This document shows positions 5,612-59,267 of a stretch of DNA of 64,000 nt, one piece after another. The first letter of the stretch is position 1. Each line of letters opens with the position of its first letter. The translations under genes were made by a program, and so were the position numbers. This DNA is from Nitrospinales bacterium (GTDB lineage Bacteria; Nitrospinota_A; UBA7883; JACRGQ01): NCBI GenBank assembly GCA_023248495.1, contig JAHFEK010000001.1, positions 49,195 through 113,194 of the forward strand, written 5' to 3'. The notes beneath the pieces are model-generated. The model had not been told where the DNA came from. It was given only the letters and a program-made list of their open reading frames with translations, and made no database searches.

Positions 5612-5749
5612 CCGCTTGTCAAATACGGCTTGTTTTGGGATTATGAAACTGGTTGGCTATGGGGTAAACCACAAGCGTGTTTCAGAACGCGGCCAATGTC
5701 TCCCTTTGTCTGGCGGAAGGGAAATTATGCATTATTATCGGAGGTCGGT

Positions 5750-10215
<4,466 letters not shown>

Positions 10216-14748: not shown

Positions 14749-14783
14749 AACAGCAGGCGGTGTTTTTTTCTGAGGAGGAAAAA

Positions 14784-16751: not shown

Positions 16752-16783
16752 GGCGGTCGAGGAACTGATGATGCCTTGTGAAG

Positions 16784-18529
16784 TTACCCGATGAATCTTC
16801 TGACGCGGGGGATGAAATCATCCGTGTTGATGTCCTTTGTGGCGAAATCATCCGCGCCCAATTTGAAGACCTCATCCCGGATTTCCATGCCGTATTCGCC
16901 GCTGACCACGATTACCGGTATATCCTTCGTGTAGGGCATTCCCTTCAAGGATTTTAGAAGGTTAAGTCCATCCATGACCGGCATTTTGATGTCGGTGATG
17001 ATCAGATGCGGGCGCGTGGCCGCTATCATGGTCAGCGCCTCTTCGCCATTTTCCGCTTCGATGATGTCGGCTTTCATCACTTTCAGGTTCAGTATTTGCA
17101 GGTACCGGAAATTCTTGTCGTCGTCCACCAGGAGAATTTTGGGGGTGACGTGGGGCAGCTTCAGGCTGAAGAGGCACCCTTTGCCGGGCGGGCAGTCCAT
17201 GCCCAATTCGCCTCCATGCAGTTCCACGATGTCTTTGACCAGCGGCAGGCCGAAACCGGTGCCTGTTTCACCCGCGGTTCCCCGCGTTGAAGTTTTTCTT
17301 TCGTAATCAAATAGATGTTTCAATAAACCGGGTTGAATGCCCGGGCCGGTATCGCGGACGCAGATGGTTGATGGTTCTTCATCGGCGAGGGCGATGGTTA
17401 TGCGGTCGCCGTCTTTGCAAAATTTTATGGCGTTGGTGACAAGGTTCTGGACCGCCTCGGTCAACAGCGTTTTATCGCCGTAGATGCGGCTGTTGTCCGG
17501 TATCGTGTTTTCCACCTCTATTCCCTTTTGGTTGGCGAGATGGGTGTAATGGGCGAGCATCTTTATGCCCAGATATTTTGCGTCAAAAAACTGCTTGTTG
17601 AGTTCCAACTGGCCTGTTTTAAATCTGCTGATGGTTAACAGGTCGTCAATGAGGCTGATCATCTGTTTGCCGGATTCGATACTCCTGTCTAAAATCAGTT
17701 TTGCGCCTTCGTTAAGCGGCTCGGTGTTGTCGTGGCGCACCAGTTTTAAAAACCCGATCATCGAGGTCAGCGGCGTTTTCAAATCGTGCGACACCAGCGA
17801 GACGAATTTGTCCTTGAGGCGGGTGGCTTCCTCCGCCTTTTCCTTCGCCACAAGCAACGACTGTTCGGCTTGCTTCCGTTCGGTCATGTCCTGGATAATG
17901 GCGACGACATACCGCAGCGTTCCATTCTCCAAACGCACCGATGAAACGGAGAGATCGCCCCAGACGATTTTGCCGTTTTTATGGAGGTATCTCTTTTCAA
18001 GATGGAAAAAATCAATTTCCCCGGCGCGCAGTTTATTCGACAGTCTTAAGTTGGCCTCCACATCGCCGGGGTGCGTAATCGCCTTGAAGTCGTGCGCCAG
18101 CAGTTCCCTTTCGGAATAGCCGATCATGTCGCAAAAGGCCCGGTTGACCTTCATGTATCTGTAATCGGAGCCCAGCACATTAACGCCCACCTTTGAATAA
18201 TCGAAGATGCCCCTGAACTGCTCTTCGCTCTCGCGCAAAGCCTCCTCGGCCTTTTTGTGTTCCTCAATATGGATTACGAGGGGACGATAAATAAAAAAAT
18301 ACAGCGCCGGCGTGACCAGCAGGGAAAGGGTGGCGGCATCCAGCACCGCCTCTTGAAATGGCGATAGAGAAAGAATATTATGCAGGAAAAGCATGTATCC
18401 TATTTCAACGGAAAAAATCGAGGCGGCGACCAGGAGCAAGAGCCTGAGGGGCGAAGGGTAAACGGTATCCGTGGATGCCGCGGTGCGCGTGATTTCCGCT
18501 GATTGCCGAGTGTCGTTTTTCTCCCCCAT
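16784..18529 (-). CDS. Membrane-anchored PAS hybrid sensor histidine kinase
   Basis: Two N-terminal TM helices and a PAS domain precede 'LVSHDLKTPLTSM', 'DTGPGI...GTGFGLPLV' and the receiver 'ILLVDDD...IITDIKMPVMDG'. Confidence 0.85.
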   Translation of the reverse strand: MGEKNDTRQSAEITRTAASTDTVYPSPLRLLLLVAASIFSVEIGYMLFLHNILSLSPFQEAVLDAATLSLLVTPALYFFIYRPLVIHIEEHKKAEEALRESEEQFRGIFDYSKVGVNVLGSDYRYMKVNRAFCDMIGYSERELLAHDFKAITHPGDVEANLRLSNKLRAGEIDFFHLEKRYLHKNGKIVWGDLSVSSVRLENGTLRYVVAIIQDMTERKQAEQSLLVAKEKAEEATRLKDKFVSLVSHDLKTPLTSMIGFLKLVRHDNTEPLNEGAKLILDRSIESGKQMISLIDDLLTISRFKTGQLELNKQFFDAKYLGIKMLAHYTHLANQKGIEVENTIPDNSRIYGDKTLLTEAVQNLVTNAIKFCKDGDRITIALADEEPSTICVRDTGPGIQPGLLKHLFDYERKTSTRGTAGETGTGFGLPLVKDIVELHGGELGMDCPPGKGCLFSLKLPHVTPKILLVDDDKNFRYLQILNLKVMKADIIEAENGEEALTMIAATRPHLIITDIKMPVMDGLNLLKSLKGMPYTKDIPVIVVSGEYGMEIRDEVFKLGADDFATKDINTDDFIPRVRRFIG

Positions 18530-18734
18530 GTCTGCATTTTACCCCATCTCTTCCTGAAGAAGGGAGGCTGTGAGGGATTTTTCCACAAAGTCACCTATCC
18601 CTTGGCGGAGTCACTCGAAGAGGACTCCGCCATATAATGCCTAAAACGGCGGAGTACCTAATGGCGGCGGCAATCTGAAGTTCCGGAAAGGGATGCTTCG
18701 CCGCGCCTGGAATGGCCGGAGCGGCGAGGCGCGG

Positions 18735-21700
18735 TCAGGCGGAGATGAATCGGCCGATGCGCGGTATGAAATCGGGTTCCGATAGGGGTTTCGTGATGAA
18801 ATCGTCGGCGTGGCATTCAAATGCCGTTTGGCGAATGCCAACACTGCGGTTTCCCGTGATGATGATTACGGGGATGTGGGAGTATTTCTTGTTGTTTTTC
18901 AGGTTTTGAAGGAGGGCGAGACCGTCTATCACCGGCATTGCGAGGTCGGCGATCACGAGAATCGGCTTTTTGCCATGAATGATCTCCATGGCTTCGGCGC
19001 CGTTTTTGGCCGTTAATACTTCAGCCCCCATATTCTGAAGAAAGGCACGGAGAATGTTTACGGCGTCTTCGTCGTCGTCCGCCACCAGAACGCTCGGTTT
19101 CACATCCGGCAGTTCGATGAAAAAAACGGATCCTTTGCCCACTTCGGATGTCGCCCAGATCGTTCCGCCATGCGCTTTTATTATGTCCATGCTCATCGGA
19201 AGTCCAAAGCCGGTTCCCCGTTCCCCGGATGTTCCCGTCGTGGTGGTTTTAATTTCATACTTGAAGAGGTCGGGCAGGAGGGATTCATGGATGCCGGTTC
19301 CCGTGTCTTCCACCGCGAGAATTTTATTTTGTTCATCCCGAAGGAACGTGGTGATTACGCCGCCATTCTCGGAGAATTTTATTGCGTTAACCACAAGGTT
19401 GTGGATTACCCTTTGGAAAAGAATTTTATCCAGGTACCATCTGGCGTTGCCCGGCACCCTGTTGTTGAGCGTGATGCCTTTTTTTTCAGCCAAATGGGAT
19501 AAATCGCCCATGACGGCGTCGCAGATGTTTTTTATGCCGCACATTCTTTTGGTTAACCGTATGTCACCGGATTGAAGTTTGGCCGCATCAAGCAGGTTGA
19601 CCGTCATTTCCATCATTGTTTCGCACATGATGTTCACTTTGCCGATCATCTCCCCGGATTCCTGGTACTTGGCGGTTTTGAGGTTCGCTAAGGCGACATT
19701 CAACATCATGCTGATAGTCGCCAGCGGCGACCGAAGGTCGTGCGCCACCAGCGAAACAAATTTATCTTTCAGCAGCGTGGCCGCCACCGCCGCTTCTTTG
19801 GCCGCTTCCAGTTCTTCCTCCGACGCTTTGCGTTCCAGCTCGTTGGCGGCGCGGACGGCGAAAATGTTCAACACGGCGATATGCCGGCTGGCGTCGAATA
19901 TCGGCTTGTCGTCCATGATGCCCATGTGCCCAAGGCATTTACCGGCGGCATTATGCAACGGTATGGCCATGTAGCTTTTTATGCCGCGATCTTTTAGCCA
20001 TACATCCTTGGGGAAGAGGCCGGCTGCATTTTCCGGGTATACACAGAGTTCTTTTCCCACCACGTTTTCACAGGGCGTATGCCGAATGTCGTAGGAAAAG
20101 TTATCGCCGAATTTTCCATTGGCCCAGAAGGCGATGGTTCTGGCGGTGGTTTCATCATCCATTTCGGCGATGAAAGCAAACTTCACGTACATCGCCTGCG
20201 CCAAGTGTTGAACGAGGGAGCGGAAAAACCGTTCTCCGATTACCGATGATGTTCCCTCCACGATCGCTTTGAACACATACTCCGCTTCTTTACGCTCGGT
20301 AATATCCATGATGTGGCCAACGACCCCGGTGATCCCGACGTTTCTTCCTTTGCCGAACACCGGATACCCGGCGGTGCGGATCCACATCCGGTGCCCTTTT
20401 GCCGAAGTGAAAGGAAACTCCATGTCGTAGGGAACCCCTTCCTTCGCGCACTTGTGAAAGGCGGCGAGAATCACCGGCCTATCCGCCGGGTCGTAGCATT
20501 CCACGCTCCGCTCAATATGGCCGGCCGATCCGCGCGCAAAATCTTCGCGCGCAATGTCGTGGATGCGGTACACCTCGTCCGTCCAGATCATCGATTGCTT
20601 TTTCACGTCGTATTCCCACCCGCCGATGTGGGCCATCTGCTGGGCGGTGGTCATCAAAAGTTCATTTTTGCGCAGTGCCGTTTGTGCCTGCTCGATATCG
20701 GTAATGTCCCGGAGAATGGCTATGATCGCCGTCGGTTTTCCATCGGTGTTGACAACTTTTAGCTTGGCCAGCCGGGTGACGTAGTGTCCGTCTTTGTTCC
20801 GCACCCTGTATTTCGTGGAAACCGATCCTTTGCTCAACAGCGTCACCTTATTTTCCATCATCAAGGTGATGTCCTCCGGGTGTACCCGTTCCCACAGGGA
20901 TTCTGATTTTTTCCATTCTTCCTTGGTATATCCAAGGCTGATCCAGGACGCTTCGTTTTCATAGAGGATGTTGAAATCCATGTCCGAAAGGAAGATAACG
21001 TCGTCCGCGGTCTCGACGAGCGTGCGGAATCGTCCTTCGCTTTCCCGCAACGCCGCTTCAGTCCGCTTGAACGCGGTTACATCGGTGATGACGCCGATAA
21101 GGCCGCCGCAGCGGCCGTCGGCCTTATTGAAAACCGCTTTGTTAAACTGTACATTCCTGCGTTCGCCGGAAGAGGATTGCACTTGTGTCTCGTATGTCTG
21201 AACGCCGGGATTGTCGAACAGGGCCTTGTCGGCCGCATAATAGATATCGGCCAATTCCTTGGGCGCAATTTCGTAAACTGTTTTTCCGGCAATTTCCCCG
21301 CGCGGTTTGCCGAGATAGTGTTCGAACGCCTTGTTGCATCCGAGATAGCGGCCTTGACTGTCTTTATAAAACACCGGAATTGGAATGGTGTTGACGAGCT
21401 GCTCGATAAAGTTTAACTGCTCCTTCACTTCCTGCTCGGCCTTAAGGCGATCGCTGATGTCGCGGCCGGTGCCGGCGAAGCCGGTGATGGTTCCATCGGC
21501 GTCTTTTATGAGGTACCCGTTGAACAGATACGGAACGAAGGCCCCATCCGCCCTTTTGAAACGCGCTTCAACCGTGCTGTGCCCTTTTTCGAATAGCTCC
21601 TTTATGTTTTGGGCTACTAGCGGCCAATCCTCTTCGTATATGCATTGTAACGCCGGCTTAAACAAAAGCTCTTGCGGTGGGAGGCCGGTGAGTTTCTCCA

Positions 21701-22160
21701 TCGCCCTGTTCCACTTAACCAATTTTCCTTCGAGGTTGTACTTATAGAAAATATCGGAGTTGGAATCCACGAGGTCACGGAGTTCGCGTAATTCGAAGGA
21801 GAAACTTTCTTCCTTCTGTTTTTGGCTGGTGATGTCGCGGGCGATGGCATACAGCAATCCCTCTTCGGCCGCCGCATGGGCATTCCACGCCAGCCATCTG
21901 ATGGATCCGTCCTTGTGCAGGTACCGGTTTTCGAAATAGAGGGTTGGCGAACCCCGCAACTGCGTTTCCACTTCTTTTATGGTGGATTCACGGTCATCCG
22001 GGTGTATGAACCGGATGAAAGGGGTTTCCAGAAGCTCTCGTTCCGTGTAACCCAGAACTTTGGTGAACGCCGGATTTATTTTTTTGAAGTAGCCATCCGT
22101 GCCGGCGATGCATATGAGGTCAAGCGAGAGCAAAAATAACTTGTCGATATCGCCAGTCAT
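18735..22160 (-). CDS. Multi-PAS/GAF hybrid sensor histidine kinase
   Basis: Five or more PAS-like modules and a GAF-like region precede 'LVAHDLRSPLATI', 'DTGTGI...GTGFGLPMS' and the receiver 'VLVADDDED...LVIADLAMPVIDG...ITKPL'. Confidence 0.85.
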   Translation of the reverse strand: MTGDIDKLFLLSLDLICIAGTDGYFKKINPAFTKVLGYTERELLETPFIRFIHPDDRESTIKEVETQLRGSPTLYFENRYLHKDGSIRWLAWNAHAAAEEGLLYAIARDITSQKQKEESFSFELRELRDLVDSNSDIFYKYNLEGKLVKWNRAMEKLTGLPPQELLFKPALQCIYEEDWPLVAQNIKELFEKGHSTVEARFKRADGAFVPYLFNGYLIKDADGTITGFAGTGRDISDRLKAEQEVKEQLNFIEQLVNTIPIPVFYKDSQGRYLGCNKAFEHYLGKPRGEIAGKTVYEIAPKELADIYYAADKALFDNPGVQTYETQVQSSSGERRNVQFNKAVFNKADGRCGGLIGVITDVTAFKRTEAALRESEGRFRTLVETADDVIFLSDMDFNILYENEASWISLGYTKEEWKKSESLWERVHPEDITLMMENKVTLLSKGSVSTKYRVRNKDGHYVTRLAKLKVVNTDGKPTAIIAILRDITDIEQAQTALRKNELLMTTAQQMAHIGGWEYDVKKQSMIWTDEVYRIHDIAREDFARGSAGHIERSVECYDPADRPVILAAFHKCAKEGVPYDMEFPFTSAKGHRMWIRTAGYPVFGKGRNVGITGVVGHIMDITERKEAEYVFKAIVEGTSSVIGERFFRSLVQHLAQAMYVKFAFIAEMDDETTARTIAFWANGKFGDNFSYDIRHTPCENVVGKELCVYPENAAGLFPKDVWLKDRGIKSYMAIPLHNAAGKCLGHMGIMDDKPIFDASRHIAVLNIFAVRAANELERKASEEELEAAKEAAVAATLLKDKFVSLVAHDLRSPLATISMMLNVALANLKTAKYQESGEMIGKVNIMCETMMEMTVNLLDAAKLQSGDIRLTKRMCGIKNICDAVMGDLSHLAEKKGITLNNRVPGNARWYLDKILFQRVIHNLVVNAIKFSENGGVITTFLRDEQNKILAVEDTGTGIHESLLPDLFKYEIKTTTTGTSGERGTGFGLPMSMDIIKAHGGTIWATSEVGKGSVFFIELPDVKPSVLVADDDEDAVNILRAFLQNMGAEVLTAKNGAEAMEIIHGKKPILVIADLAMPVIDGLALLQNLKNNKKYSHIPVIIITGNRSVGIRQTAFECHADDFITKPLSEPDFIPRIGRFISA

Positions 22161-51880: not shown

Positions 51881-53311
51881 ATGTTCATGGATGCATTGGC
51901 GATAGTGGGCCGCACCGTTGTTAACTCGGCCTTGACGGCGATTCTGGCCGTTGCCGTGCTGGCCGCCGGCTGTGTGCCGCCCAAAAACAAAACTCCCAAA
52001 GCCAGCGCTGTGACTTCCGCGCCCGCCGCTCCGGCCGTTGAGCCGGCCGATACTCCGCAAACCGATTCGCCTTCCGCGGCGCCCGCTGCCGCCGCCGCGC
52101 CGGAGGACAACCCATTGTCACACACATGGCAGCGCCTGTTGGCGCTTGAAGGCAAAAGCGGCATTGCCGGTTCCGTCACCATCGGCAATATTTCCGCTGG
52201 AATCGGCGAAGAGGTCTCCTCGGCAAAAAATGTCCGGCATATCGAGGCCGAGATGGAAGTTATGTGCCAGATCCGCAAGCCGTACACCGAAGCGGCGATA
52301 TACCTTGATGCGGTATCGGCGCGCATTGATAAGGTGGATGCTTCCAGCGTGCAGGGGATTAAAACCGAGGATGCGGTTGTTGCCTCGCAGGTGAACAAGG
52401 GGCGCTTTGAGTGGCGGATAAAGTTGGCCCAAAACCAGATTCCGCCGGTCAGTCAAAAGCTGCGGATGTATATTGAAGCGCCTAAAAACATGGACGCCAT
52501 TGAGATTCGCCTCCAGCGGTCGTTCAAAAAGGCCGATGGCGATGTTTTTAACAGCATTCCGCCCACGCCGGAAAGTCCCGAAGCGAAACGTCTTATCGAT
52601 TCAATTAAAAAAGAACTTGGCAGCCGCGTTAAAAGTGATGTTCCTTGGTTAGGGGTGGGGGATTGCGCGGCGGTAATGGGCGAGCAAAAAAACGGTCAAT
52701 GTTATCCCACGGACGCGTCATGGCGGTTGGCGAAAAAACGCGCGGCCGGACTGATGGCCACTCCCTGGATGGAGAAGATAGTGCTTCGGGTGAACGGTGG
52801 CGCGATAGCACGCAAGAAAGAAGAGCCTGCTAAGGTGAAGCCCGTCGAAACGCCGAAGCCGGTCGAAACGGTAAAACCACTGGAAGCGCCAAAGCCCGCC
52901 AAAGTGGCAAAGCCCGTGGAAGCGCCGAAACCAATTGAAGCGGCGCCGCCAGTGGAAGAGCCGAAACCAATTGAAGTGGCGCCGCCAGTGGAAGAGCCGA
53001 AACCAATTGAAGTGGCGCCGCTAGCGGAAGAGCCGAAACCGGTGGAGGCCCCGAAGCCCGCCGAAGTTGGGCAACCGGTGGAAATAACGAAACCGGCCAA
53101 AACGGCAAAACCGGTGGAGGCCCCGAAGCCCGCCGAAGTTGGGCAACCGGTGGAAATAACGAAACCGGCCAAAACGGCAAAACCGGCTGTAGCGCCGAAG
53201 GCTCAACAAGAGCCAGCTAAAAAGCCCGCCATAAAAAAAGATGCGGTTAAGCCGAAAGTTAACAAAGAAGGGCAGCCGATATTTGATTTAAGCGACGTAT
53301 TGGGTAAATAG
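51881..53311 (+). CDS. Lipoprotein with C-terminal Pro/Lys/Glu-rich 'KPVEAPKP' repeat region
   Basis: It has the lipobox 'VLAAGC'. The C-terminal ~150 aa consist of PKP(V/I/A)E units. Confidence 0.65.
   Translation: MFMDALAIVGRTVVNSALTAILAVAVLAAGCVPPKNKTPKASAVTSAPAAPAVEPADTPQTDSPSAAPAAAAAPEDNPLSHTWQRLLALEGKSGIAGSVTIGNISAGIGEEVSSAKNVRHIEAEMEVMCQIRKPYTEAAIYLDAVSARIDKVDASSVQGIKTEDAVVASQVNKGRFEWRIKLAQNQIPPVSQKLRMYIEAPKNMDAIEIRLQRSFKKADGDVFNSIPPTPESPEAKRLIDSIKKELGSRVKSDVPWLGVGDCAAVMGEQKNGQCYPTDASWRLAKKRAAGLMATPWMEKIVLRVNGGAIARKKEEPAKVKPVETPKPVETVKPLEAPKPAKVAKPVEAPKPIEAAPPVEEPKPIEVAPPVEEPKPIEVAPLAEEPKPVEAPKPAEVGQPVEITKPAKTAKPVEAPKPAEVGQPVEITKPAKTAKPAVAPKAQQEPAKKPAIKKDAVKPKVNKEGQPIFDLSDVLGK
53036..53179 (+). 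repeat. Exact 72-nt tandem duplication inside the Pro-rich lipoprotein gene
   Basis: 'aaaccggtggaggccccgaagcccgccgaagttgggcaaccggtggaaataacgaaaccggccaaaacggca' occurs at 53036 and again at 53108. Shorter 36-nt units occur at 52945-53020. Confidence 0.8.
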
Positions 53312-53582: not shown

Positions 53583-54506
53583 ATGGGTTACGTTATTAAC
53601 CGCTGGCTTTGTGGCATGGTGCTTATTGTCCTCATTGCCGCGCCGCGCGCGGATGCGGCGGAAACGGCGATGGGAATGATGCTAAATTTTTCCCCCGTGT
53701 ACCGGTATGCTCATTTTAGGATCGAGACGGGGGATGAGCCGGTGCCGGATCCGGTAACGGGCGCTAAAAAACGTGAACCGCGCGACGGTTTTTTTATTAT
53801 AACCCCCCTCAACGAAAATGAAGAGCTGATCGAGGCCGCGCATCCCGACCAGCCGGCCCGCTGGTATCTGGGATGGTCCTTTGGCAGCGCAAGGGCCGCC
53901 GCACGTCCTTCGGGCGCGTTGGAGAGGGGGCTTTCGATGATTGATATTGGCGCCAATTACCAGGAATTCGTATTCTATCCCAACGGCGGAAATGATTTCC
54001 GGCGTAAAGCCGCTGTTTCGGTTTATCTTTCAATTTACGAAACGCTCTACGTCGTTTCGGCGGAACCGGGGAGCTTCATCTCCAGTCTGCGGGCCACCTA
54101 TTTGTACGAGCATCGCGCGGCGGGCAAGACCATCGTGGTGGTTCCCGGCGCCGTAGGTCAACCCGACACCGTTACCAATAGAGCGGTCTCTTTCCCCACG
54201 GCGTTAGGGGCGCTGATCATACATCCCGGGGTCATTTACGAGCCGTCCGAAACGGCGGCGTTCCGCTTGGCGTTTTCACCGCAATACACATTTTACAATA
54301 ATCTGAATCAGGCGGTTCCATGGTTTGATAAAGAGAGACTCCGCCTTGAGGTCTGGCTCCACCATTTCCCCGTGGCGGACCGCAACTTCCGGCTGCAGGC
54401 GGGCGTGTATTCCGACCGGATTGTACGGGGTGATACGGCTGACGGCGGAACCGAAATGGGGGTGATGTTACAGCTTCGGCGTGATATCCGGACATTTGAC
54501 TGGTAG
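53583..54506 (+). CDS. Hypothetical exported protein (possible outer-membrane beta-barrel)
   Basis: It has the signal peptide 'VLIVLIAAPRADAAE', alternating beta-like segments, and a C-terminal aromatic residue. I recognise no family. Confidence 0.5.
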   Translation: MGYVINRWLCGMVLIVLIAAPRADAAETAMGMMLNFSPVYRYAHFRIETGDEPVPDPVTGAKKREPRDGFFIITPLNENEELIEAAHPDQPARWYLGWSFGSARAAARPSGALERGLSMIDIGANYQEFVFYPNGGNDFRRKAAVSVYLSIYETLYVVSAEPGSFISSLRATYLYEHRAAGKTIVVVPGAVGQPDTVTNRAVSFPTALGALIIHPGVIYEPSETAAFRLAFSPQYTFYNNLNQAVPWFDKERLRLEVWLHHFPVADRNFRLQAGVYSDRIVRGDTADGGTEMGVMLQLRRDIRTFDW

Positions 54507-54597: not shown

Positions 54598-54843
54598 GTG
54601 GAGAAGCAAATGGAAAGCAACAGAAGGGATAAAATCCTCACCGAAGTAAACCGGCTTTTGTTGGAAAACGAGCTGACAGCCGAAGACCGCGAAGCGATAC
54701 TTGAGAATATAGTCCGCATCCATCTGGACCAGATGGAGGATATTGAGGAAATCGACCTGTTTCAGGACCGCGTGAATGACATGATCGATGATTATGTCGA
54801 GCAGCATTTCGAGGACACGATGGAGGATAACAACTACAACTGA
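54598..54843 (+). CDS. Hypothetical small acidic protein
   Basis: This 81-aa ORF is very acidic and helical. It is the only sensible ORF in the gap. ATG 54610 is an alternative start. Confidence 0.4.
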   Translation: MEKQMESNRRDKILTEVNRLLLENELTAEDREAILENIVRIHLDQMEDIEEIDLFQDRVNDMIDDYVEQHFEDTMEDNNYN

Positions 54844-54924
54844 TTGCGGTTGACGCATGGCGTTTAATTCTGTTAGGCTTTTGTTAAATCAATCCGTAAA
54901 GAGGTTGGAGGAGTGGGAAGGGGT

Positions 54925-55236
54925 ATGACCAAATCCGATATGGCCGAGAAGCTTGCCGCGAAGCTGAACATCACGAAGCAGCAGGCGGAAGGTATCATCA
55001 ACATTTTCACCAATTCGATTATTGAATCCCTTTCCAAGGGGGACAAGGTGGAAATCCGGGGCTTTGGCAGCTTCCGCGTGCGGCACCGCTCCGCCAAAGA
55101 GGGGCGCAATCCCAAAACCGGCGAGAAGGTTTTCGTGCCTCCGAAAAAAGTGCCCTTCTTCAAGACCGGCAAGGAATTCCGCCTCATTGTCGACGGCAAA
55201 GAAGTCGCCGCCGACGGCTCGGACGCCGAAGAGTAA
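54925..55236 (+). CDS. HU/IHF-family DNA-binding protein (IHF-beta-like)
   Basis: It reads 'MTKSDMAEKLA...LSKGDKVEIRGFGSFRVRHRSAKEGRNPKTGEKVFVPPKKVPFFKTGKE'. Confidence 0.85.
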   Translation: MTKSDMAEKLAAKLNITKQQAEGIINIFTNSIIESLSKGDKVEIRGFGSFRVRHRSAKEGRNPKTGEKVFVPPKKVPFFKTGKEFRLIVDGKEVAADGSDAEE

Positions 55237-55386: not shown

Positions 55387-58263
55387 TTATTTCAGGGTGA
55401 GTTCGGCGACGTTCACGCCGACGATCTTTTCCAGGTCGCCCCGCTTTTTAAAGCGGTCGAAGAGGTAGGCCATCAGCTTGTCCTTGGCGTAGCGGGTTTC
55501 TTCGTAGAACTTGTCCTTGAAGAATACTTCGATCTCGTTTTCAAGCGCCAGTTCGTAAATGAATTTTTTGGTCTCGGCGGTTTTGAATTCCGACGAGGTG
55601 GCGAATTGCAGTTCCACGTCGGCGGTCATCATTTTCACCTGCGATGAGTTGAAATCAACCGGCAGCATCACGCCTACCTTCATGATGGTGATTTGCGCCA
55701 AGGCCGGGGGAATCAGCTTTTCCGCCTCAAGCGCCGCCTTGCGGGCATCATCGTGGGCGGCCGCGGCGATCTCCTTCGCGTCCTTCGGCTTCGGCCCCTG
55801 CGCCGTGGCGGTTGGCGGAGGTTCGGCTTTTTTCTCCTCATGCGCGGGGGGCGGCGGGGCCGCCTTGGGCGCTTCGGGCTTTGCCTCTTCATGGGCGGGG
55901 GGCGCTGCCTTTTTCTGTTCCGCAACCGGCCCCGCCGGAGCGGCCGGCGCTTTTGCCGGGGCTGCGGCTTTTTGAGCCACTGCCACCGGATGGGATTTCA
56001 ACTTCATAAAATAGTACGAGCCCGCGCCGAGCATCAGCGCCACTCCCGCCGCCAGGGGGAGGGCGATTTTTCTGAATACGCCGGCTCTCTTCTTTTTCGG
56101 TTCCTCGCCGGGTTCCGCGGCAGTGGGGGATTCTTCCTCCACGGTGAAGTGTTCTTCTTTTGGCTTGCGCTTGGGAAGTTTGTCTTTAATGTAGTCGATA
56201 ATGCCGGCCAGCTTGCCCGGTTTACTTTCCGCTTCCACGGGATGTTCTTCCGTGGCGGCGGGAACCTCCGCCGTCACTTTATCCAATCCCTCGAACATCG
56301 AGGTGTCGATCCCTTCGTATTCCGCGGGCGGCGCCGCATGGGTTGCCGCCGCCTCCGCTTTTTTGTGTGCGGGAGCCTTCTTGGAGCCAACCGCCTCTTC
56401 GGCGAATAGCGATTCCAACTCGTCGTCTCCGCCTTCCAGTAGCTGACTAGCGGAGGTCGTTGCCGCTGCTTTTGGCGCTTCGCTTCCCCCAGTCATAAGG
56501 GCGTCCAGATCGCTTTGGCTGATTATATCGCCGCCGGAGGGTGCCGCAGCCGCAGCCTCGGGGAGAGGAGTTTTGGTTTCACCAAGCAGGGAGTCCAGGT
56601 CGCTTTGAGAAATGATATCTCCTTCGGATTCTTTGGCGGGTGCCGACGGCGCAGTGGCGGCCGCAAAGAGGGAGTCCAGATCGCTTTGCGAGATGATGTC
56701 TCCTTCTCCGGTCGGGGCCGGAGCGGGAGCGGGTGATTCTTTTTCGGTTTTTACGCTGGCCAGAATGGAATCAATATCGTTATTGGAGAGGGCCTGGGTA
56801 GTGCCGGAGGTCTCGTTTTCCAAAATGCTTTCCTGTGGCGCGGGAGCCGAAGCTGTCATCAAAATAGCGTCGATATCGTCCTGGCTATCCATTGTGCCCG
56901 CCGGAACCGCCGCATTGCTGCCAGCGAAAATCGCGTCAATATCGTCCGTTGTGGCCGTTTTCGGCTCTTCTTTCTTTGCCGGTGCCTGCTGCGCCTGAAC
57001 CGATGCGAAGATGTCGTCAATATCGCTTGATGATGCCATCTTCGGCTCTTCTTTCTTCGCCGGTGCCTGCAGTGCCTGCACGGATGCGAAGATGTCGTCA
57101 ATATCGCTTGATGACGCCATCTTCGGCTCTTCTTTCTTTGCCGGTGCCTGCTGCGCCTGCACGGATGCGAAGATGTCGTCAATATCGCTTGATGATGCCA
57201 TCTTCGGCTCTTCTTTCTTCGCCGGTGCCTGCTGTGCTTGAACCGATGCGAAGATGTCGTCAATATCGCTTGATGATGCCATCTTCGGCTCTTCTTTCTT
57301 CGCCGGTGCCTGCTGTGCTTGAACCGATGCGAAGATGTCGTCAATATCGCTTGATGACGCCATCTTCGGCTCTTCTTTCTTTGCCGGTGCCTGCTGCGCC
57401 TGAACCGATGCGAAGATGTCGTCAATATCGCTTGATGACGCCATCTTCGGCTCTTCTTTCTTCGCCGGTGCCTGCTGCGCCTGAACCGATGCGAAGATGT
57501 CGTCAATATCGCTTGATGACGCCATCTTCGGCTCTTCTTTCTTTGCCGGTGCCTGCTGTGCTTGAACCGATGCGAAGATGTCGTCAATATCGCTTGATGA
57601 TGCCATCTTCGGCTCTTCTTTCTTCGCCGGTGCCTGCTGTGCTTGAACGGATGCAAGGATGGCGGCGATGTCATCCGCGCCAACCGCTTCTTTTTTTACG
57701 GAGGGCGTCGGTTCCGGTTTGGGCGTTTCAGGGCGCTGGGCCTGAACGCTCGCCAATATATTCTCAATGTCGCTATCATTCATCGTCGGCATTTCCGCGG
57801 CGGGCAAGGGGAGTGGGGCGGTGATTATCTTTTCATGAATGTTATTGTGGACATCGCCCAAAATGGAATCGATCTGGCTTTGCGCCGTTAGATTGGTGGA
57901 ATCGTTTTTATCGTCTTTCGGTTTTCCTTCGTAGTCAAGCCCGCTCATAATTGCCGCCACTTGCTCTGGGGTGAGGCTTGGCTTTTCTTTACCTTTGACC
58001 GGCTCTTTAGCGGGCGCGCGCACCGCTGGCGGAGCGGTCTCCGCTGGCGTGGGTGTAGCGGAGACTTCAACCGGTTGTGTGGCAGGCTGCACACCCGTGG
58101 CAGGTATTGTGGTTTTTGCCACATCCTTAGGTGCGGCTTTCAATTTTTTCTTTACGAAAAAGATGTTTTCACAGGTGGCGCAATGGGCGTACGTTCCCTC
58201 TTGGGGGATGGATGAGCCATCCACTTCGTAGCGCGTGGCGCACTTGGGGCAGGTCAATAACAT
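55387..58263 (-). CDS. MJ0042-type zinc-ribbon membrane protein with ~18 acidic 'D-I/L-D-x-I/L-hydrophobic' motifs, one TM helix and a weakly FliL-like C-terminal domain
   Basis: The N-terminus reads 'MLLTCPKCATRYEV...HCATCENIFFV'. Repeats include 'SSSDIDDIFASVQAQQAPAKKEEPKMA' x8 and 'GDIISQSDLDSL' x3. The TM helix is 'IALPLAAGVALMLGAGSYYFM'. Confidence 0.8.
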   Translation of the reverse strand: MLLTCPKCATRYEVDGSSIPQEGTYAHCATCENIFFVKKKLKAAPKDVAKTTIPATGVQPATQPVEVSATPTPAETAPPAVRAPAKEPVKGKEKPSLTPEQVAAIMSGLDYEGKPKDDKNDSTNLTAQSQIDSILGDVHNNIHEKIITAPLPLPAAEMPTMNDSDIENILASVQAQRPETPKPEPTPSVKKEAVGADDIAAILASVQAQQAPAKKEEPKMASSSDIDDIFASVQAQQAPAKKEEPKMASSSDIDDIFASVQAQQAPAKKEEPKMASSSDIDDIFASVQAQQAPAKKEEPKMASSSDIDDIFASVQAQQAPAKKEEPKMASSSDIDDIFASVQAQQAPAKKEEPKMASSSDIDDIFASVQAQQAPAKKEEPKMASSSDIDDIFASVQALQAPAKKEEPKMASSSDIDDIFASVQAQQAPAKKEEPKTATTDDIDAIFAGSNAAVPAGTMDSQDDIDAILMTASAPAPQESILENETSGTTQALSNNDIDSILASVKTEKESPAPAPAPTGEGDIISQSDLDSLFAAATAPSAPAKESEGDIISQSDLDSLLGETKTPLPEAAAAAPSGGDIISQSDLDALMTGGSEAPKAAATTSASQLLEGGDDELESLFAEEAVGSKKAPAHKKAEAAATHAAPPAEYEGIDTSMFEGLDKVTAEVPAATEEHPVEAESKPGKLAGIIDYIKDKLPKRKPKEEHFTVEEESPTAAEPGEEPKKKRAGVFRKIALPLAAGVALMLGAGSYYFMKLKSHPVAVAQKAAAPAKAPAAPAGPVAEQKKAAPPAHEEAKPEAPKAAPPPPAHEEKKAEPPPTATAQGPKPKDAKEIAAAAHDDARKAALEAEKLIPPALAQITIMKVGVMLPVDFNSSQVKMMTADVELQFATSSEFKTAETKKFIYELALENEIEVFFKDKFYEETRYAKDKLMAYLFDRFKKRGDLEKIVGVNVAELTLK
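56924..57652 (-). repeat. 81-nt (27-codon) in-frame tandem repeat, 8 near-identical units plus 1 degenerate unit
   Basis: The unit start 'gcgaagatgtcgtcaatatcgcttgatga' recurs at 57005, 57086, 57167, 57248, 57329, 57410, 57491 and 57572. A degenerate unit lies at 56924. Confidence 0.9.
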
Positions 58264-58408
58264 AACGTTTGTGTCAACTCCTTGGCCCTAATCTATCGGA
58301 TATTTTGGCATCCGACTTTAGTTAAATAACTGTATTTCTTCACTTATTGCGTTTTTCCGTCTTTTTCCGGTTGACAAAAGCCGATGAGGCCTTCAAAATT
58401 CACCCATA

Positions 58409-58423
58409 AGTGTATTATACACT
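58409..58423. promoter_or_regulatory. Perfect 7-1-7 palindrome AGTGTAT-T-ATACACT in a divergent intergenic region (candidate operator)
   Basis: I read it directly. It sits about 25 nt downstream of a TTGACA-17-CAAAAT promoter-like pair (58371-58399). Confidence 0.25.
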
Positions 58424-58607
58424 CAACAATCATGCCGAAACATGATTGGGCGACCGCAAAAAGGATTAAAAAGTATCCGGGACGCCCACCTGCAACAGTC
58501 TCTTGACAGGTTTGTAAAATCCGCCCCCCTGGAATTGGATGGCGGCGGAACAAAATGACAGCGCCACCAACCGGTGGGTGCTAAGCGACCGAAAGGAAAA
58601 CGAAGAC

Positions 58608-59267
58608 ATGAGATCACTTTATCGTTACGGAGTGATGGCGGCAATGGTTATCGCCGCGGTGCTTATCCAGGTTTCCCAGCACCAAAAGGCGCAGATGGAG
58701 GATTTGCGGATTCGAGGCGCGGCGCGGGAAGCCGCAGTGCTCGGCCAGCATGACTGGAACATGCAAAACGGTAAAAAAATACAGGCGCGCGCCAGGATTT
58801 GCGCCATACTCGCGGAGTCGCAAGACTCGCTGCATCACGATCCCGTCCTGTTGGCCGATCTCATCATCACCAAGGCCGCCGAACACCGGCTTGATCCTTT
58901 TTTGGTGCTCGGCATTATAAAAACGGAAAGCGATTTTAACCGGTTCGCCGTTTCCCCCAAAGGGGCAATGGGCTTGATGCAGCTCCGGCCGAACACGGCG
59001 GAAACGCTTTTTGACGGCGAGCTGAAAGGCGTGGAAGCCGTCGCGCTCACCGACAATGAATTGAATATCAGCCTGGGCACCCGGTACCTGGAGCAGCTGA
59101 TCCGCCGCTTTGGCGACTTGCGCCTGGCGCTGGAAGCGTACAACCGCGGACCCACCCGCCTGCGCCGCGATATGAACGACGGCACGGGGTTGGATCGCGA
59201 GTACGCCGAGAAAGTCATGGCGAATTATCACCAGTTGCGCAAGTACCCGGCGGGCCGCACCCTCTAA
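58608..59267 (+). CDS. Lytic transglycosylase (SLT domain)
   Basis: It carries 'IIKTESDFNRFAVSPKGAMGLMQLRPNTA' and 'AYNRGP'. It has an N-terminal anchor. The start is taken at ATG 58608. Confidence 0.8.
   Translation: MRSLYRYGVMAAMVIAAVLIQVSQHQKAQMEDLRIRGAAREAAVLGQHDWNMQNGKKIQARARICAILAESQDSLHHDPVLLADLIITKAAEHRLDPFLVLGIIKTESDFNRFAVSPKGAMGLMQLRPNTAETLFDGELKGVEAVALTDNELNISLGTRYLEQLIRRFGDLRLALEAYNRGPTRLRRDMNDGTGLDREYAEKVMANYHQLRKYPAGRTL

What the first reader, a model, noticed from the sequence alone, without database searches (positions are those of the whole stretch)
55387..58263. Zinc-ribbon membrane protein carrying ~18 copies of a motif resembling the CheY-binding 'LSQxEIDxLL' peptide of FliM/FliY
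Seen in the sequence:
- After an MJ0042-type zinc ribbon, the predicted cytoplasmic ~640 aa contain an acidic amphipathic motif repeated about 18 times.
- Single copies: 'SQIDSIL', 'DSDIENIL', 'ADDIAAIL', 'TTDDIDAIF', 'SQDDIDAIL', 'SNNDIDSIL' and 'DDELESLF'.
- Multiple copies: 8 x 'SSSDIDDIF' and 3 x 'IISQSDLD(S/A)L(F/L/M)'.
- A single TM helix follows, then a Pro/Ala-rich linker, then a ~110-aa domain ending '...IVGVNVAELTLK'. The layout of this last domain weakly recalls FliL.

Established knowledge:
- The N-terminal FliM/FliY peptide 'LSQ(D/E)EID(A/S)LL' is the docking site for phosphorylated CheY.

Inference:
- The protein may be a membrane-tethered multivalent scaffold or sink for CheY-like single-domain receivers, or for the REC domains of the many hybrid kinases encoded here.
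- I am not aware of a described protein with this architecture.
Basis: partly seen in the sequence, partly recalled or inferred. Interest (0 to 1): 0.7.

Follow-up and report, generated by a model that had tools for sequence, protein, structure and literature searches.

The report
Membrane scaffold with repeated docking peptides
This gene encodes an uncharacterised, Nitrospinota-only membrane protein that displays about 18 copies of a short acidic docking peptide inside the cell, probably to gather partner proteins at one site on the cell envelope; which partner it binds (CheY was the first guess) remains open.

Summary
ORF 55387-58263 (-) encodes 958 aa: a PF13717/MJ0042 zinc ribbon, a ~690-aa acidic disordered region with 18 copies of a 'SQDDIDxL(L/F)'-type motif, one TM helix, a Pro/Ala-rich periplasmic spacer and a ~108-aa C-terminal domain.

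- **Motif array.** Shuffles give 0.3 copies. Eight copies lie in an 81-bp tandem array under purifying selection.
- **C-terminal domain.** Its predicted fold best matches FliL periplasmic domains, but there is no sequence-level FliL signal.
- **FliM resemblance.** It is quantitatively real: E. coli FliM scores 12.8-16.9 bits against 11.6-19.8 for the protein's own copies.
- **Not specific to FliM.** The MglB C-terminal helix scores as well. A clade of genuine FimV/HubP polar-landmark proteins carries 5-13 copies of the same motif.
- **Zinc ribbon.** It is homologous to the ZitP ribbon (PDB 2NB9) and shares its Pfam family with the GltJ ribbon. The GltJ ribbon binds that same MglB helix.
- **Distribution and context.** All eight genome-collection hits are Nitrospinota. 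A divergent lytic-transglycosylase gene adjoins it in all 10 motif-clade loci. No che/fli/mgl genes are nearby.

Best reading: an envelope-spanning multivalent hub or landmark scaffold, possibly gated by its own zinc ribbon. The client is unresolved, so the CheY-sink idea is one of several candidates. I rate it a new variant of a known kind.

The parts
55387..58263 (-). Complete gene (958 aa plus stop): ZnR, acidic disordered region with motif array, TM helix, periplasmic spacer, FliL-like domain
   Evidence: ORF list. Full-length homologues at 59-75% identity and distant ones at 26-34% share the same architecture.
58153..58263 (-). N-terminal zinc ribbon, aa 1-37 (C5, C8, C28, C31; conserved 'CENIFF' followed by a basic tail KKK)
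   Evidence: PF13717 E 3.2e-9 and TIGR02098. PDB 2NB9, the ZitP zinc finger: sequence E 4.5e-8 and best structural match to the AF2 model (ZnR blocks pLDDT 89-93; TM 0.70, 41% identity). F35 aligns with ZitP W35.
56404..57975 (-). Array of 18-19 acidic amphipathic docking motifs (aa 97-620) inside the disordered cytoplasmic region (aa 38-732, pI 4.4)
   Evidence: Regex and HMM counts compared with shuffles and other ORFs. Composition and pI. AF2 predicts helices for the first two motif sites (aa 99-106 and 127-143) in an otherwise disordered linker.
56959..57606 (-). Eight tandem 81-bp (27-aa) units 'MASSSDIDDIFASVQAQQAPAKKEEPK' (aa 220-435)
   Evidence: TRF: period 81, 8.7 copies, 95% identical. 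Seven of eight variable nucleotide columns are at codon position 3; 94 synonymous against 7 non-synonymous pairwise codon differences.
56485..56703 (-). Three membrane-proximal 'GDIISQSDLD(S/A)L(F/L/M)' copies (aa 521-593): the most FliM-like subclass, conserved across the family
   Evidence: The subclass occurs in 1-5 copies in 23 of the 24 motif-bearing members scanned. Its HMM scores FliM/FliY 11.4-16.3 bits and MglB 9.1 bits.
56005..56067 (-). Single transmembrane helix (aa 733-753), with the N-terminus inside the cell
   Evidence: Hydropathy windows above 1.4. 'KKKRAGVFRK' lies on the N-terminal side, and a zinc ribbon needs the cytoplasm (inference).
55714..56004 (-). Periplasmic Ala/Pro/Lys-rich spacer (aa 754-850, pI 9.2)
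   Evidence: Composition A 31, P 18, K 15 of 98 residues. Variable in length and sequence among homologues.
55390..55713 (-). C-terminal periplasmic alpha/beta domain (aa 851-958), FliL/SPFH-like fold, with invariant 'FFxDKFYEETxYAxDKL'
   Evidence: Alignment A1. AF2 pLDDT 76, topology b-b-a-a-a-b. Foldseek top 11 hits are FliL (6AHQ, 7SGN, 9HMF; TM 0.54-0.73, probability 0.97-1.0), followed by stomatin, prohibitin and HflK. No sequence-level FliL signal.
58608..59267 (+). Divergently transcribed, membrane-anchored lytic transglycosylase (SLT domain); conserved partner gene. The ORF from the first ATG starts at 58539; the 219-aa form that matches the homologues starts at 58608.
   Evidence: PF01464 E 3e-24. 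Immediately upstream and divergent in all 10 distinct motif-clade loci. Best NCBIfam hit is the LT domain of the flagellar-assembly LT BB0259, below the curated cutoff.
58264..58607 (.). Shared divergent intergenic region between the two genes
   Evidence: Sequence. One sigma-70-like match at 58371-58399 (+) faces the SLT gene; this is a consensus match only.

Best explanation
The gene encodes a Nitrospinota-specific, inner-membrane-anchored, envelope-spanning scaffold of the 'hub' or 'landmark' kind.

Shown:
- The protein has an N-terminal ZitP/GltJ-class zinc ribbon.
- It has a ~690-aa acidic disordered cytoplasmic region carrying about 18 selected copies of a short amphipathic-helix motif.
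- It has one TM helix, a ~100-aa Pro/Ala-rich periplasmic spacer and a FliL/SPFH-like periplasmic domain.
- Its gene is invariably paired with a membrane-anchored lytic transglycosylase gene.

Inferred mechanism:
- The periplasmic domain, held away from the membrane by the spacer, oligomerises or contacts peptidoglycan or the co-encoded transglycosylase. This would fix the protein at a site of local wall remodelling, such as a pole or the insertion site of an envelope-spanning machine.
- In the cytoplasm the motif array acts as a multivalent docking platform that concentrates many copies of a client protein.
- By analogy with GltJ, the protein's own zinc ribbon binds one of these helices. Binding in cis would give auto-inhibition that a client can relieve by competition. 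Binding in trans would cross-link the molecules into a matrix.

The client is not identified. In order of my preference, the candidates are the known partners of the FliM-type peptide (a CheY-like receiver or an FlhG/MinD-type ATPase), and then an MglA-like small GTPase.
For: - Architecture and motif enrichment.
- Purifying selection on the repeat peptide, 94 synonymous against 7 non-synonymous differences.
- Copy number varies from 2 to 17 among homologues while the motif is kept.
- The zinc ribbon is homologous to the ZitP ribbon (2NB9: sequence E 4.5e-8, top structural hit). It lies in the same Pfam family as the GltJ ribbon (PF13717; 2e-15 and 1e-14 for GltJ and ZitP).
- ZitP is a ZnR-TM-periplasmic-domain polar protein needed for pilus biogenesis (PMC5182065).
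- The GltJ ribbon binds a linear motif in its own linker and the MglB C-terminal helix, and MglA-GTP competes for the linker motif (PMC11135422).
- That MglB helix is the best PDB-wide match to the repeat profile and scores 18.6-19.6 bits, like the protein's own copies.
- The same motif array (5-13 copies of 'KAS(D/A)DDIDAILAS') occurs in FimV/HubP polar-landmark orthologues. Their identity rests on TIGR03504 scoring above cutoff and on the asd-like/fimV/truA locus.
- The ribbon signature 'EGTYAxCxxCEN(I/V)FF' occurs in 18 of 20 motif-bearing members (the other two differ at one position). None of the 32 full-length members with at most one copy has it.
- The C-terminal fold is FliL/SPFH-like, and SPFH family members form membrane-proximal rings (the ring point is established knowledge).
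- The SLT gene is adjacent and divergent in 10 of 10 motif-clade loci, across 26-75% protein identity.
Against: - No interaction has been tested.
- AF2 of aa 1-146 gave only pLDDT of about 60 for the motif helices, so ribbon-motif docking is unsupported either way.
- The GltJ linker motif itself scores 0.8 bits or less against the repeat HMM, so that part of the analogy is at pattern level only.
- The ribbon-signature correlation is confounded by phylogeny, because the motif-bearing members form one clade.
- FimV/HubP proteins with the same array have no zinc ribbon, so the ribbon cannot be the universal ligand.
- About 30 of the 52 full-length family representatives have the ribbon and the C-terminal domain but no detectable motif.
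- The FliL-like assignment rests on a medium-confidence model (pLDDT 76) and gets no profile-level support (hhalign probability 0.06%).
- Polar localisation is pure inference.
Confidence: 0.55

Rival explanations
1. The array is a membrane-tethered multivalent sink or scaffold for phosphorylated CheY-like receivers (or REC domains of hybrid kinases), mimicking the FliM/FliY N-terminal peptide. It may sit next to flagellar stators through the FliL-like domain.
For: - FliM/FliY N-termini score like genuine copies (12.8-19.2 bits).
- The conserved 'hhSQxDLDxLh' subclass is closer to FliM/FliY than to MglB.
- The C-terminal fold is FliL-like.
- Nitrospinota do have flagellar genes: a FliN equivalog in L002, FlgV type 1 reported in the phylum (PMC11607428), and 97 COG-N genes in N. 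gracilis (PMC3578206).
- The window holds several REC domains.
Against: - No che, fli or stand-alone REC gene is linked in any of about 13 loci. The only conserved neighbour is a lytic transglycosylase.
- The motif is equally MglB-like and is shared with FimV/HubP repeats.
- CheZ, another CheY-binding peptide, scores poorly (4.4-8.6 bits, and -0.8 with the subclass profile).
- T. maritima FliM (sequence from memory) scores about 1 bit, so profile similarity does not track CheY binding.
- There is no sequence-level FliL membership.
Confidence: 0.2
2. A HubP-like flagellar or pilus placement landmark. The motif copies mimic the FliM/FliY 'EIDAL' peptide so as to dock an FlhG/MinD/ParA-type ATPase, which controls the number and position of a polar machine.
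For: - FlhG is reported to act through the N-terminus of FliM, and FliY carries an 'EIDAL' element (PMC12826062).
- HubP/FimV recruit FlhF and FlhG.
- Genuine FimV/HubP orthologues carry the same motif array.
- The co-conserved lytic transglycosylase fits insertion of an envelope-spanning machine.
- In L002 the module lies beside a pilT-pilC-pilS-like cluster.
Against: - No flhF, flhG, parA or minD gene is seen in the neighbourhoods.
- I could not check whether the repeats of the characterised Vibrio and Shewanella HubP proteins contain this motif.
- The pil linkage is seen in one locus only.
Confidence: 0.15
3. A GltJ-type molecular switch for an MglA-like small GTPase. The motif copies are MglB-C-terminal-helix or GltJ-linker-like sites that bind the GTPase, and the zinc ribbon competes for them.
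For: - The MglB C-terminal helix is the top PDB-wide match to the motif profile (E 0.024) and scores 18.6-19.6 bits.
- The zinc ribbon has the same Pfam family as the GltJ ribbon.
- Published ZnR/linker/MglA-GTP/MglB competition.
- GltJ shares the ZnR-linker-TM layout with a cytoplasmic N-terminus. From memory, it also has a Pro-rich periplasmic part followed by a domain.
Against: - No GYF domain and no TonB-C domain.
- No mglA or mglB homologue in the window or in any held locus (the MglA query sequence came from memory).
- The GltJ linker motif does not match the repeat HMM (0.8 bits or less).
- The authors note that ZnR-GYF proteins outside the Myxococcales do not correlate with mglAB.
- The conserved subclass is more FliM-like than MglB-like.
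Confidence: 0.08
4. The repeats have no specific protein partner. The region would be an acidic, low-complexity spacer, entropic bristle or cation-binding segment that expanded by replication slippage, and only the ribbon and the periplasmic domain would be functional.
For: - About 30 of 52 full-length family representatives lack the motif.
- Copy number is highly variable.
- The 81-bp units are 95% identical, so expansion was recent.
Against: - There is a strong synonymous bias among units (94 against 7).
- The same 10-12-residue motif is conserved between clades with only 26-34% overall identity, while the spacers differ completely.
- It recurs in an unrelated protein family, FimV/HubP.
- The regular hydrophobic pattern I-x-x-(I/L)-(L/F) is typical of a binding helix.
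Confidence: 0.05

Closest known systems
ZitP (Caulobacter crescentus; PDB 2NB9 zinc finger)
   Same: The N-terminal PF13717-type zinc ribbon is homologous (sequence E 4.5e-8; top structural match, TM 0.70, 41% identity). The topology is the same: cytoplasmic ZnR, linker, single TM helix, C-terminal periplasmic domain. An aromatic residue (F35) sits at the position of the PopZ-binding W35. ZitP is a polar protein needed for pilus biogenesis.
   Different: ZitP has a ~70-residue linker without a motif array. Its periplasmic domain is DUF3426, not a FliL-like fold, and there is no DUF3426 hit here. Its partner PopZ is alphaproteobacterial. The basic patch K18/R24/R27/R34 is not conserved here.
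GltJ / AgmX (Myxococcus xanthus gliding-motility focal-adhesion protein; ZnR PDB 7ZOK)
   Same: Same Pfam ZnR family. It has a ZnR, a disordered linker carrying a helical docking motif, and a TM helix; from memory, also a Pro-rich periplasmic part and a C-terminal domain. It is the documented precedent for a ZnR binding an acidic helix (the MglB C-terminal helix) that matches the repeat here, with a client competing for the site.
   Different: GltJ has one linker motif, a GYF domain and a TonB-C-like domain, none of which are found here. Its linker motif 'DDEIGAVFDQ' matches the repeat only at pattern level (0.8 bits or less). BLASTP between the two ribbons finds nothing.
FimV / HubP polar landmark proteins
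   Same: A long acidic cytoplasmic region with an imperfect repeat array of variable number. One gammaproteobacterial FimV/HubP clade carries the same motif ('KAS(D/A)DDIDAILAS', 5-13 copies, up to 16 bits). Both are bitopic membrane proteins with a wall-facing periplasmic part.
   Different: The topology is opposite: FimV/HubP have a periplasmic N-terminus with LysM and a cytoplasmic C-terminus. There is no LysM, FimV_core or FimV C-terminal TPR domain here. The ribbon and the FliL-like domain are absent from FimV/HubP. The function of the HubP repeats is itself unknown.
FliL (flagellar stator-associated protein) and other SPFH-fold domains
   Same: The predicted fold of aa 851-958 (b-b-a-a-a-b) best matches FliL periplasmic domains from Vibrio, Helicobacter and Campylobacter (TM 0.54-0.73), followed by stomatin, prohibitin and HflK. 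It lies on the periplasmic side of a single TM helix.
   Different: There is no sequence similarity (no PF03748 hit; hhalign probability 0.06%). A ~100-aa spacer separates it from the membrane. A ~730-aa cytoplasmic N-terminus replaces FliL's short one. The gene is not in a flagellar operon.
FliM/FliY N-terminal 'LSQxEIDALL' (EIDAL) peptide
   Same: Near-identical consensus over 11 positions for the 'hhSQxD(L/I)D(A/S)L(L/F)' subclass. FliM/FliY score within the range of genuine copies.
   Different: In FliM/FliY it is a single copy at the extreme N-terminus of a switch protein. Here there are about 18 internal copies in a membrane protein with no FliM or FliN domains. Binding to CheY-P or FlhG is untested.
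MglB C-terminal helix (Myxococcus xanthus; PDB 6IZW, 6H5B, 6HJM)
   Same: 'MSDDDIDNLFSEGS' is the best PDB-wide match to the repeat profile. It is a short acidic helix that docks onto MglA and onto the GltJ zinc ribbon.
   Different: It is a single C-terminal copy attached to a Roadblock domain. No MglA or MglB was seen in the loci. The subclass profile prefers FliM.

Membership tests
Zn_ribbon_4 / MJ0042-type zinc ribbon (PF13717, TIGR02098) | CxxC-(19)-CxxC ribbon scoring above the curated thresholds | tested here: met
   PF13717 37 bits against a cutoff of 30.3; TIGR02098 27.3 bits against 20.9. The AF2 ribbon blocks have pLDDT 89-93, and 2NB9 is the top structural hit.
ZitP family | N-terminal ZnR homologous to the ZitP ZnR | tested here: met
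   phmmer E 4.5e-8 to 2NB9; Foldseek TM 0.70, 41% identity.
ZitP family | C-terminal periplasmic DUF3426 domain | tested here: not met
   No DUF3426 hit at E <= 1. The C-terminal domain has a FliL/SPFH-like fold instead.
ZitP family | W35 plus a basic patch that binds PopZ | tested here: inconclusive
   F35 aligns with W35, so the aromatic residue is kept, but K18/R24/R27/R34 are not conserved (alignment). PopZ is alphaproteobacterial, and binding cannot be tested here.
GltJ (AgmX) family | ZnR of the same family at the N-terminus | tested here: met
   The GltJ ZnR matches PF13717 at E 2.2e-15, and the protein here matches the same family at 3.2e-9. 7ZOK is only a weak structural hit (rank 19).
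GltJ (AgmX) family | GYF domain and periplasmic TonB-C-like domain | tested here: not met
   No such Pfam hits.
GltJ (AgmX) family | Linker motif 'V(D/E)(D/E)DEIGAVFDQ' bound by the ZnR and by MglA-GTP | tested here: not met
   GltJ-homologue linkers score 0.8 bits or less with the repeat HMM. Only the pattern [DE][DE]-I-x-x-[ILV]-F is shared.
FimV/HubP polar landmark family | Periplasmic LysM / FimV_core (TIGR03505) and C-terminal FimV TPR (TIGR03504) | tested here: not met
   The NCBIfam and Pfam scans of the protein return only the zinc ribbon and a weak Slr1339 repeat artefact. P0032, as a positive control, scores 41 bits on TIGR03504.
FimV/HubP polar landmark family | Long acidic cytoplasmic region with imperfect repeats of variable number | tested here: met
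   pI 4.41, with 122 D+E in 686 aa. There are 2-17 motif copies among homologues, and the same motif occurs in the FimV/HubP clade.
FliL (PF03748) | Sequence match to the FliL family | tested here: not met
   No PF03748 hit at E <= 1. hhalign of A1 against E. coli FliL gives probability 0.06%. The profile search against PDB sequences finds no FliL.
FliL (PF03748) | FliL/SPFH-like periplasmic fold following a single TM helix | tested here: met
   The Foldseek top 11 hits are FliL structures (E 3e-3 to 0.13, TM 0.54-0.73), on a model with pLDDT 76. Confidence is moderate.
FliL (PF03748) | Encoded within flagellar gene clusters and associated with stators | tested here: not met
   None of the examined loci has flagellar neighbours, apart from an orphan FliN about 8 kb away in L002. 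Stator association cannot be tested here.
FliM/FliY N-terminal CheY-P-binding peptide | Sequence consensus LSQ(D/E)EID(A/S)LL | tested here: met
   E. coli FliM scores 12.8-16.9 bits. B. subtilis FliM and FliY (sequences from memory) score 13.2-19.2 bits. The protein's own copies score 11.6-19.8 bits.
FliM/FliY N-terminal CheY-P-binding peptide | Binds phosphorylated CheY (or FlhG) | not testable with these tools
   Needs AF-Multimer or biochemistry. No multimer prediction was available.
MglB C-terminal helix | Sequence similarity to 'DDDIDNLF', attached to a Roadblock domain, with MglA present | tested here: inconclusive
   The sequence similarity is met (top PDB hit, E 0.024; 18.6-19.6 bits). 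There is no Roadblock domain. No MglA was found in the held loci; the whole genome could not be searched.

The most novel reading that the evidence does not exclude
The 'SQDDIDALL' helix would be a general bacterial docking peptide shared by FliM/FliY, MglB and the so-far-unexplained acidic repeats of HubP/FimV. In this Nitrospinota protein, about 18 copies together with a ZitP/GltJ-type zinc ribbon that binds the same helix would form a self-gated, self-cross-linking platform. That platform would buffer or concentrate a signalling protein (CheY~P, an FlhG-type ATPase or a small GTPase) at an envelope-spanning FliL-like assembly built together with a dedicated lytic transglycosylase. This would be a new type of polar signalling hub, and it would also explain what HubP/FimV repeats do.
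Probability: 0.15. Interest if true: 0.8.

Novelty: new variant of a known kind. Interest (0 to 1): 0.55.

Why it matters
Polar landmark and hub proteins (HubP/FimV, PopZ/ZitP, GltJ) organise motility, chemotaxis and chromosome segregation. They are known from only a few phyla, and the role of the HubP acidic repeats is still unexplained.

This protein combines three elements in one chain, in a phylum of globally important nitrite oxidisers where nothing is known about cell polarity:
- the ZitP/GltJ-type zinc ribbon;
- a HubP-type repeat array;
- a FliL-like periplasmic domain.

The array unit is essentially the FliM 'EIDAL' peptide and the MglB C-terminal helix. That turns an open question into a testable one: do HubP/FimV-type repeats dock the partners of that peptide (CheY-P, FlhG, MglA, zinc ribbons)?

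The invariant pairing with a lytic transglycosylase also suggests a link between cytoplasmic scaffolding and local wall remodelling.

Tried and rejected
- **PopZ helix as ZitP ligand.** From memory I thought ZitP's ribbon binds the PopZ N-terminal helix, which looks like the repeat. The paper says the interaction does not need PopZ's N-terminal segment, so I dropped this.
- **GltJ linker motif as the same motif.** By eye it is similar, but it scores 0.8 bits or less with the repeat HMM. I kept it only as a pattern-level analogy.
- **PDB-wide profile search for FliM.** FliM was not listed. This is probably due to HMMER's filters and the exclusion of chains under 20 residues, since FliM scores well when searched with --max. 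I did not take its absence as evidence.
- **BLASTP of the ribbon against the GltJ ribbon.** No alignment. The relationship rests on shared Pfam membership.
- **hhalign of the C-terminal profile against E. coli FliL.** No signal. A profile search against PDB sequences gave only a marginal NTF2-like hit, E 0.058.
- **AF2 of aa 1-146 to see ribbon-motif docking.** The helices formed but pLDDT was about 60, so the result is inconclusive.
- **Ribbon-signature and motif co-variation.** The association is near-perfect but confounded by clade.
- **Literature search for the motif strings.** Only noise. The searches on Nitrospinota motility gave indirect information only.
- **The look-up of encoding contigs for the identical protein P0001.** Not on record, so the source assembly of the window was not identified.
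- **Looking for che/fli/mgl genes.** None in the window or in the 12 loci held at that point, nor in the annotated neighbourhoods fetched afterwards, except one FliN. The whole genomes could not be searched.
- **Weak Pfam/NCBIfam hits (PNPase, Slr1339) in the repeat region.** Dismissed as low-complexity artefacts.

Full report
**Observation.**
- The minus-strand ORF 55387-58263 encodes a 958-aa protein.
- Residues 1-36 are a PF13717 (Zn_ribbon_4) / TIGR02098 (MJ0042) zinc ribbon, above both curated cut-offs.
A loose regular expression finds 19 sites between aa 97 and 620.
- Composition-preserving shuffles give 0.33 sites on average and at most 3.
- An HMM built from distinct repeat instances of several family members (A2) finds 17 copies at 11.6-19.8 bits. 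The best other ORF of the window reaches 2.8 bits.
- Eight copies lie in an 81-bp tandem array (TRF: 8.7 copies, 95% identity).
- Within that array, seven of the eight variable nucleotide columns are third codon positions. Pairwise there are 94 synonymous and 7 non-synonymous codon differences. The peptide is therefore selected and not merely recently duplicated.
- A single TM helix (aa 733-753, basic residues on the N-terminal side), an Ala/Pro/Lys-rich segment (aa 754-850, pI 9.2) and a 108-aa C-terminal domain follow. The cytoplasmic region is acidic (pI 4.4) and about 690 aa long.

**Family and distribution.**
- Word-indexed and exhaustive profile searches find a small family. There are 5 close homologues (59-75% identity) and about 10 distant ones (26-34%) with the same architecture.
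- The C-terminal domain yields 107 representatives at 50% clustering among 1.84 billion proteins.
- All eight hits in the species-representative genome collection are Nitrospinota or Nitrospinales MAGs. The only names given by sources are 'zinc-ribbon domain-containing protein [Nitrospinae/Nitrospinota bacterium]'.
- Of 52 full-length representatives with the ribbon and the C-terminal domain, 20 carry 2-17 motif copies at 8 bits or more. About 30 remote ones carry none.
- The motif is conserved between clades whose spacers are unrelated. Examples are 'ISQDDIEALLSANAPKP', 'GQDDIDALFGGSAKT' and 'SSSDIDDIFASVQAQ'.
- A membrane-proximal subclass 'G(D/E)hhSQxD(L/I)D(A/S)L(L/F)' is present in nearly every motif-bearing member, so it looks ancestral.

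**C-terminal domain.**
- An AF2 model from a 10-sequence alignment (pLDDT 76) has a b-b-a-a-a-b topology.
- Its best PDB matches are the periplasmic domains of FliL from Vibrio (6AHQ/6AHP), Helicobacter (7SGN) and Campylobacter (9HMF), with TM 0.54-0.73 and probability 0.97-1.0. Stomatin, prohibitin and HflK SPFH domains come next.
- There is no sequence-level signal. No PF03748 hit appears, a profile search of PDB sequences finds no FliL, and hhalign against E. coli FliL gives probability 0.06%.
- The domain is therefore FliL/SPFH-like in fold only.

**What the motif resembles.**
- I verified the E. coli FliM, CheZ, CheY and FliL sequences from NC_000913.3.
- Against the Nitrospinota-only HMM, the FliM N-terminus (MGDSILSQAEIDALLN) scores 12.8 bits in full-length context and 16.5-16.9 bits as a fragment. 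B. subtilis FliM and FliY (sequences from memory) score 16.5-19.2 bits.
- CheZ's C-terminus scores only 4.4-8.6 bits, and T. maritima FliM (from memory) about 1 bit.
- An unbiased search of all PDB sequences with the motif profile returned a different best hit: the C-terminal helix of Myxococcus MglB ('MSDDDIDNLFSEGS'; 6IZW, 6H5B, 6HJM). Paxillin LD motifs appeared lower in the list. The MglB helix scores 18.6-19.6 bits.
- The original homology search also pulled in P0032. This protein passes TIGR03504 (FimV/HubP C-terminal domain) and carries 13 copies of 'KASADDIDAILAS'.
- Its relatives carry 5-13 copies. One of them lies in a pdxB / asd-like / [gene] / truA locus, which from my own knowledge is the canonical fimV/hubP position.
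- The motif is therefore also the 'acidic repeat' of a clade of genuine FimV/HubP polar landmarks. The literature describes these repeats as variable and of unknown function, with the C-terminal TPR seen as the main client site (PMC12918733).
- With a profile of the conserved subclass only, FliM/FliY (11.4-16.3 bits) rank above the FimV unit (12.0) and MglB (9.1).

**The zinc ribbon.**
- The ribbon's closest solved relative is PDB 2NB9 (E 4.5e-8), named by the structure library as the 'ZitP zinc finger'. It is also the top structural match of the AF2 model (TM 0.70, 41% identity).
- ZitP is a bipolar Caulobacter membrane protein with a ZnR, a TM helix and a periplasmic DUF3426 domain. Its ribbon binds the polar matrix protein PopZ through W35 and a basic patch. 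Its periplasmic domain is needed for polar pilus biogenesis (PMC5182065). F35 occupies the W35 position here.
- The ribbon of GltJ/AgmX, whose sequence I took from that paper's construct list, and the ZitP ribbon both match PF13717 strongly.
- For GltJ it has been shown by NMR that the ribbon binds a linear motif in its own disordered linker. MglA-GTP competes for that motif, and the freed ribbon binds MglB through the MglB C-terminal helix; binding is lost when that helix is deleted (PMC11135422).
- That helix is the best PDB-wide match to the repeat studied here.
- Fragments of GltJ homologues show the linker motif to be 'V(D/E)(D/E)DEIGAVFDQ'. It shares the pattern [DE][DE]-I-x-x-[ILV]-F but scores 0.8 bits or less with the repeat HMM, so that part of the analogy is weak.
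- Within the family, the ribbon signature 'EGTYAxCxxCEN(I/V)FF' occurs in 18 of 20 motif-bearing members (the other two differ at one position) and in none of the 32 members with at most one copy. These groups are also clades, so the association is confounded.
- AF2 on aa 1-146 models the ribbon confidently (blocks at pLDDT 89-93), leaves the linker disordered and makes helices at the first two motif sites with pLDDT of about 60. This neither shows nor excludes docking.

**Genomic context.**
- The window is otherwise housekeeping and two-component genes. REC domains occur only in three hybrid PAS kinases, a REC-HisKA protein and a LuxR-type regulator. There is no che, fli, pil or mgl gene.
- Across 10 distinct loci of the motif-bearing clade, the one constant neighbour is a divergently transcribed, membrane-anchored SLT-domain lytic transglycosylase immediately upstream. 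These loci are the window, L001, L002/L007, L003, L004, L005, L006, L015, L016 and L017. Everything else differs between clades.
- The transglycosylase's best NCBIfam hit is the LT domain of the Borrelia flagellar-assembly enzyme, well below cutoff.
- In one MAG the pair adjoins a pilT / ZnR-REC-like / cNMP / pilC / pilS-like cluster and, 8 kb away, an orphan FliN equivalog.
- Flagellar genes do exist in the phylum: FlgV type 1 (PMC11607428) and 97 COG-N genes in N. gracilis (PMC3578206).
- The CheY idea therefore cannot be dismissed for lack of flagella. The specific host genomes could not be searched.

**Interpretation.**
- The best-supported reading is an envelope-spanning hub or landmark scaffold. 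It would be a ZitP/GltJ-type membrane protein whose linker has been expanded into a HubP-type multivalent array of a docking helix. Its periplasmic end (FliL/SPFH-like, on a long Pro/Ala spacer) would work with a dedicated lytic transglycosylase.
- The GltJ precedent makes it plausible that the protein's own ribbon binds the helices, giving cis gating or trans cross-linking, while a client competes.
- The sequence cannot decide which client. The peptide is equally FliM-like (partners CheY-P and FlhG) and MglB-like (partners MglA and the zinc ribbon).
- Membership in the ZitP, GltJ, FimV/HubP or FliL families fails on at least one defining feature each. The protein should be filed as a new variant of the landmark or hub-scaffold kind.
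- Interest is moderate to high. The architecture appears undescribed, the phylum is unexplored for cell polarity, and the shared motif gives a concrete, testable hypothesis for the long-unexplained HubP/FimV repeats.

Noticed in passing
L002:6521-7117 (-): In a Nitrospinota MAG, a 198-aa protein with an N-terminal Zn_ribbon_4 and a receiver-like domain ('YRLVLVTDDFD') sits inside a pilT-like / cNMP-binding / pilC / pilS-like cluster, right next to the SLT gene and the family member. It could be a ZnR-bearing client or regulator of type IV pili.
   Followed up: partly
L002:1570-1947 (-): An orphan FliN equivalog (TIGR02480, 90.3 bits against a cutoff of 84.05; E. coli FliN phmmer E 2.6e-24) lies between ksgA and DUF1844/rpoZ/dksA, outside any flagellar cluster.
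   Followed up: partly
window 56959-57606: The synonymous variants among the eight 81-bp units are shuffled in mosaic combinations between units. This suggests ongoing gene conversion or unequal recombination together with purifying selection. Close homologues differ in copy number (10-17 copies at 8 bits or more).
   Followed up: yes
window 51881-53311, 53583-54506, 54598-54843 (+): Three ORFs (476, 307 and 81 aa) have no significant Pfam or NCBIfam match (one weak cell-wall-binding EntB hit, E 7e-4, far below cutoff). Together with an HU/IHF-like gene (54913-55236), they are syntenic with the zinc-ribbon gene in L001 and L005. In L015 the HU gene and two unannotated genes of matching size occupy the same positions. 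They form a conserved block of unknowns in the close clade.
   Followed up: partly
window 4052-4738 (+): A 228-aa protein has a receiver domain followed by a HisKA dimerisation/phosphoacceptor domain but no HATPase_c catalytic domain.
   Followed up: no
window 5594-9952 (+): A 1452-aa fusion protein has two BcrAD_BadFG-type ATPase stretches and a DUF2229 domain (CoA-enzyme activase type).
   Followed up: no
window 14760-22160: Three consecutive hybrid histidine kinases with multiple PAS (and GAF) domains and C-terminal receivers: 14760-16751 (+), 16784-18529 (-) and 18735-22160 (-).
   Followed up: no
proteins P0017-P0031 (hits): Eukaryote-like Ser/Thr kinases of about 800 aa were pulled in by the repeat region. 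They carry arrays of 'EDDLFAAFSQPQ...KPKEEKKEE' units, an independent example of acidic-hydrophobic short-motif arrays separated by K/E/P-rich spacers.
   Followed up: partly
L018:6001-8859 and proteins P0032, P0172-P0184: A clade of FimV/HubP orthologues (pdxB / asd-like / fimV / truA locus) whose acidic repeats are 5-13 copies of 'KAS(D/A)DDIDAILAS(A/M)G', an EIDAL-like or MglB-helix-like peptide. The searches here turned up no description of this: a string search for the motif returned nothing relevant, and a 2026 FimV paper treats the repeats only as variable acidic repeats.
   Followed up: partly
L008, L009, L011 (remote family members): The remote, motif-free members are not next to an SLT gene. 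They are followed instead by a TIGR03960 B12-binding radical-SAM gene and a PgeF (peptidoglycan editing factor) gene. This is a different but again wall-related neighbourhood.
   Followed up: partly
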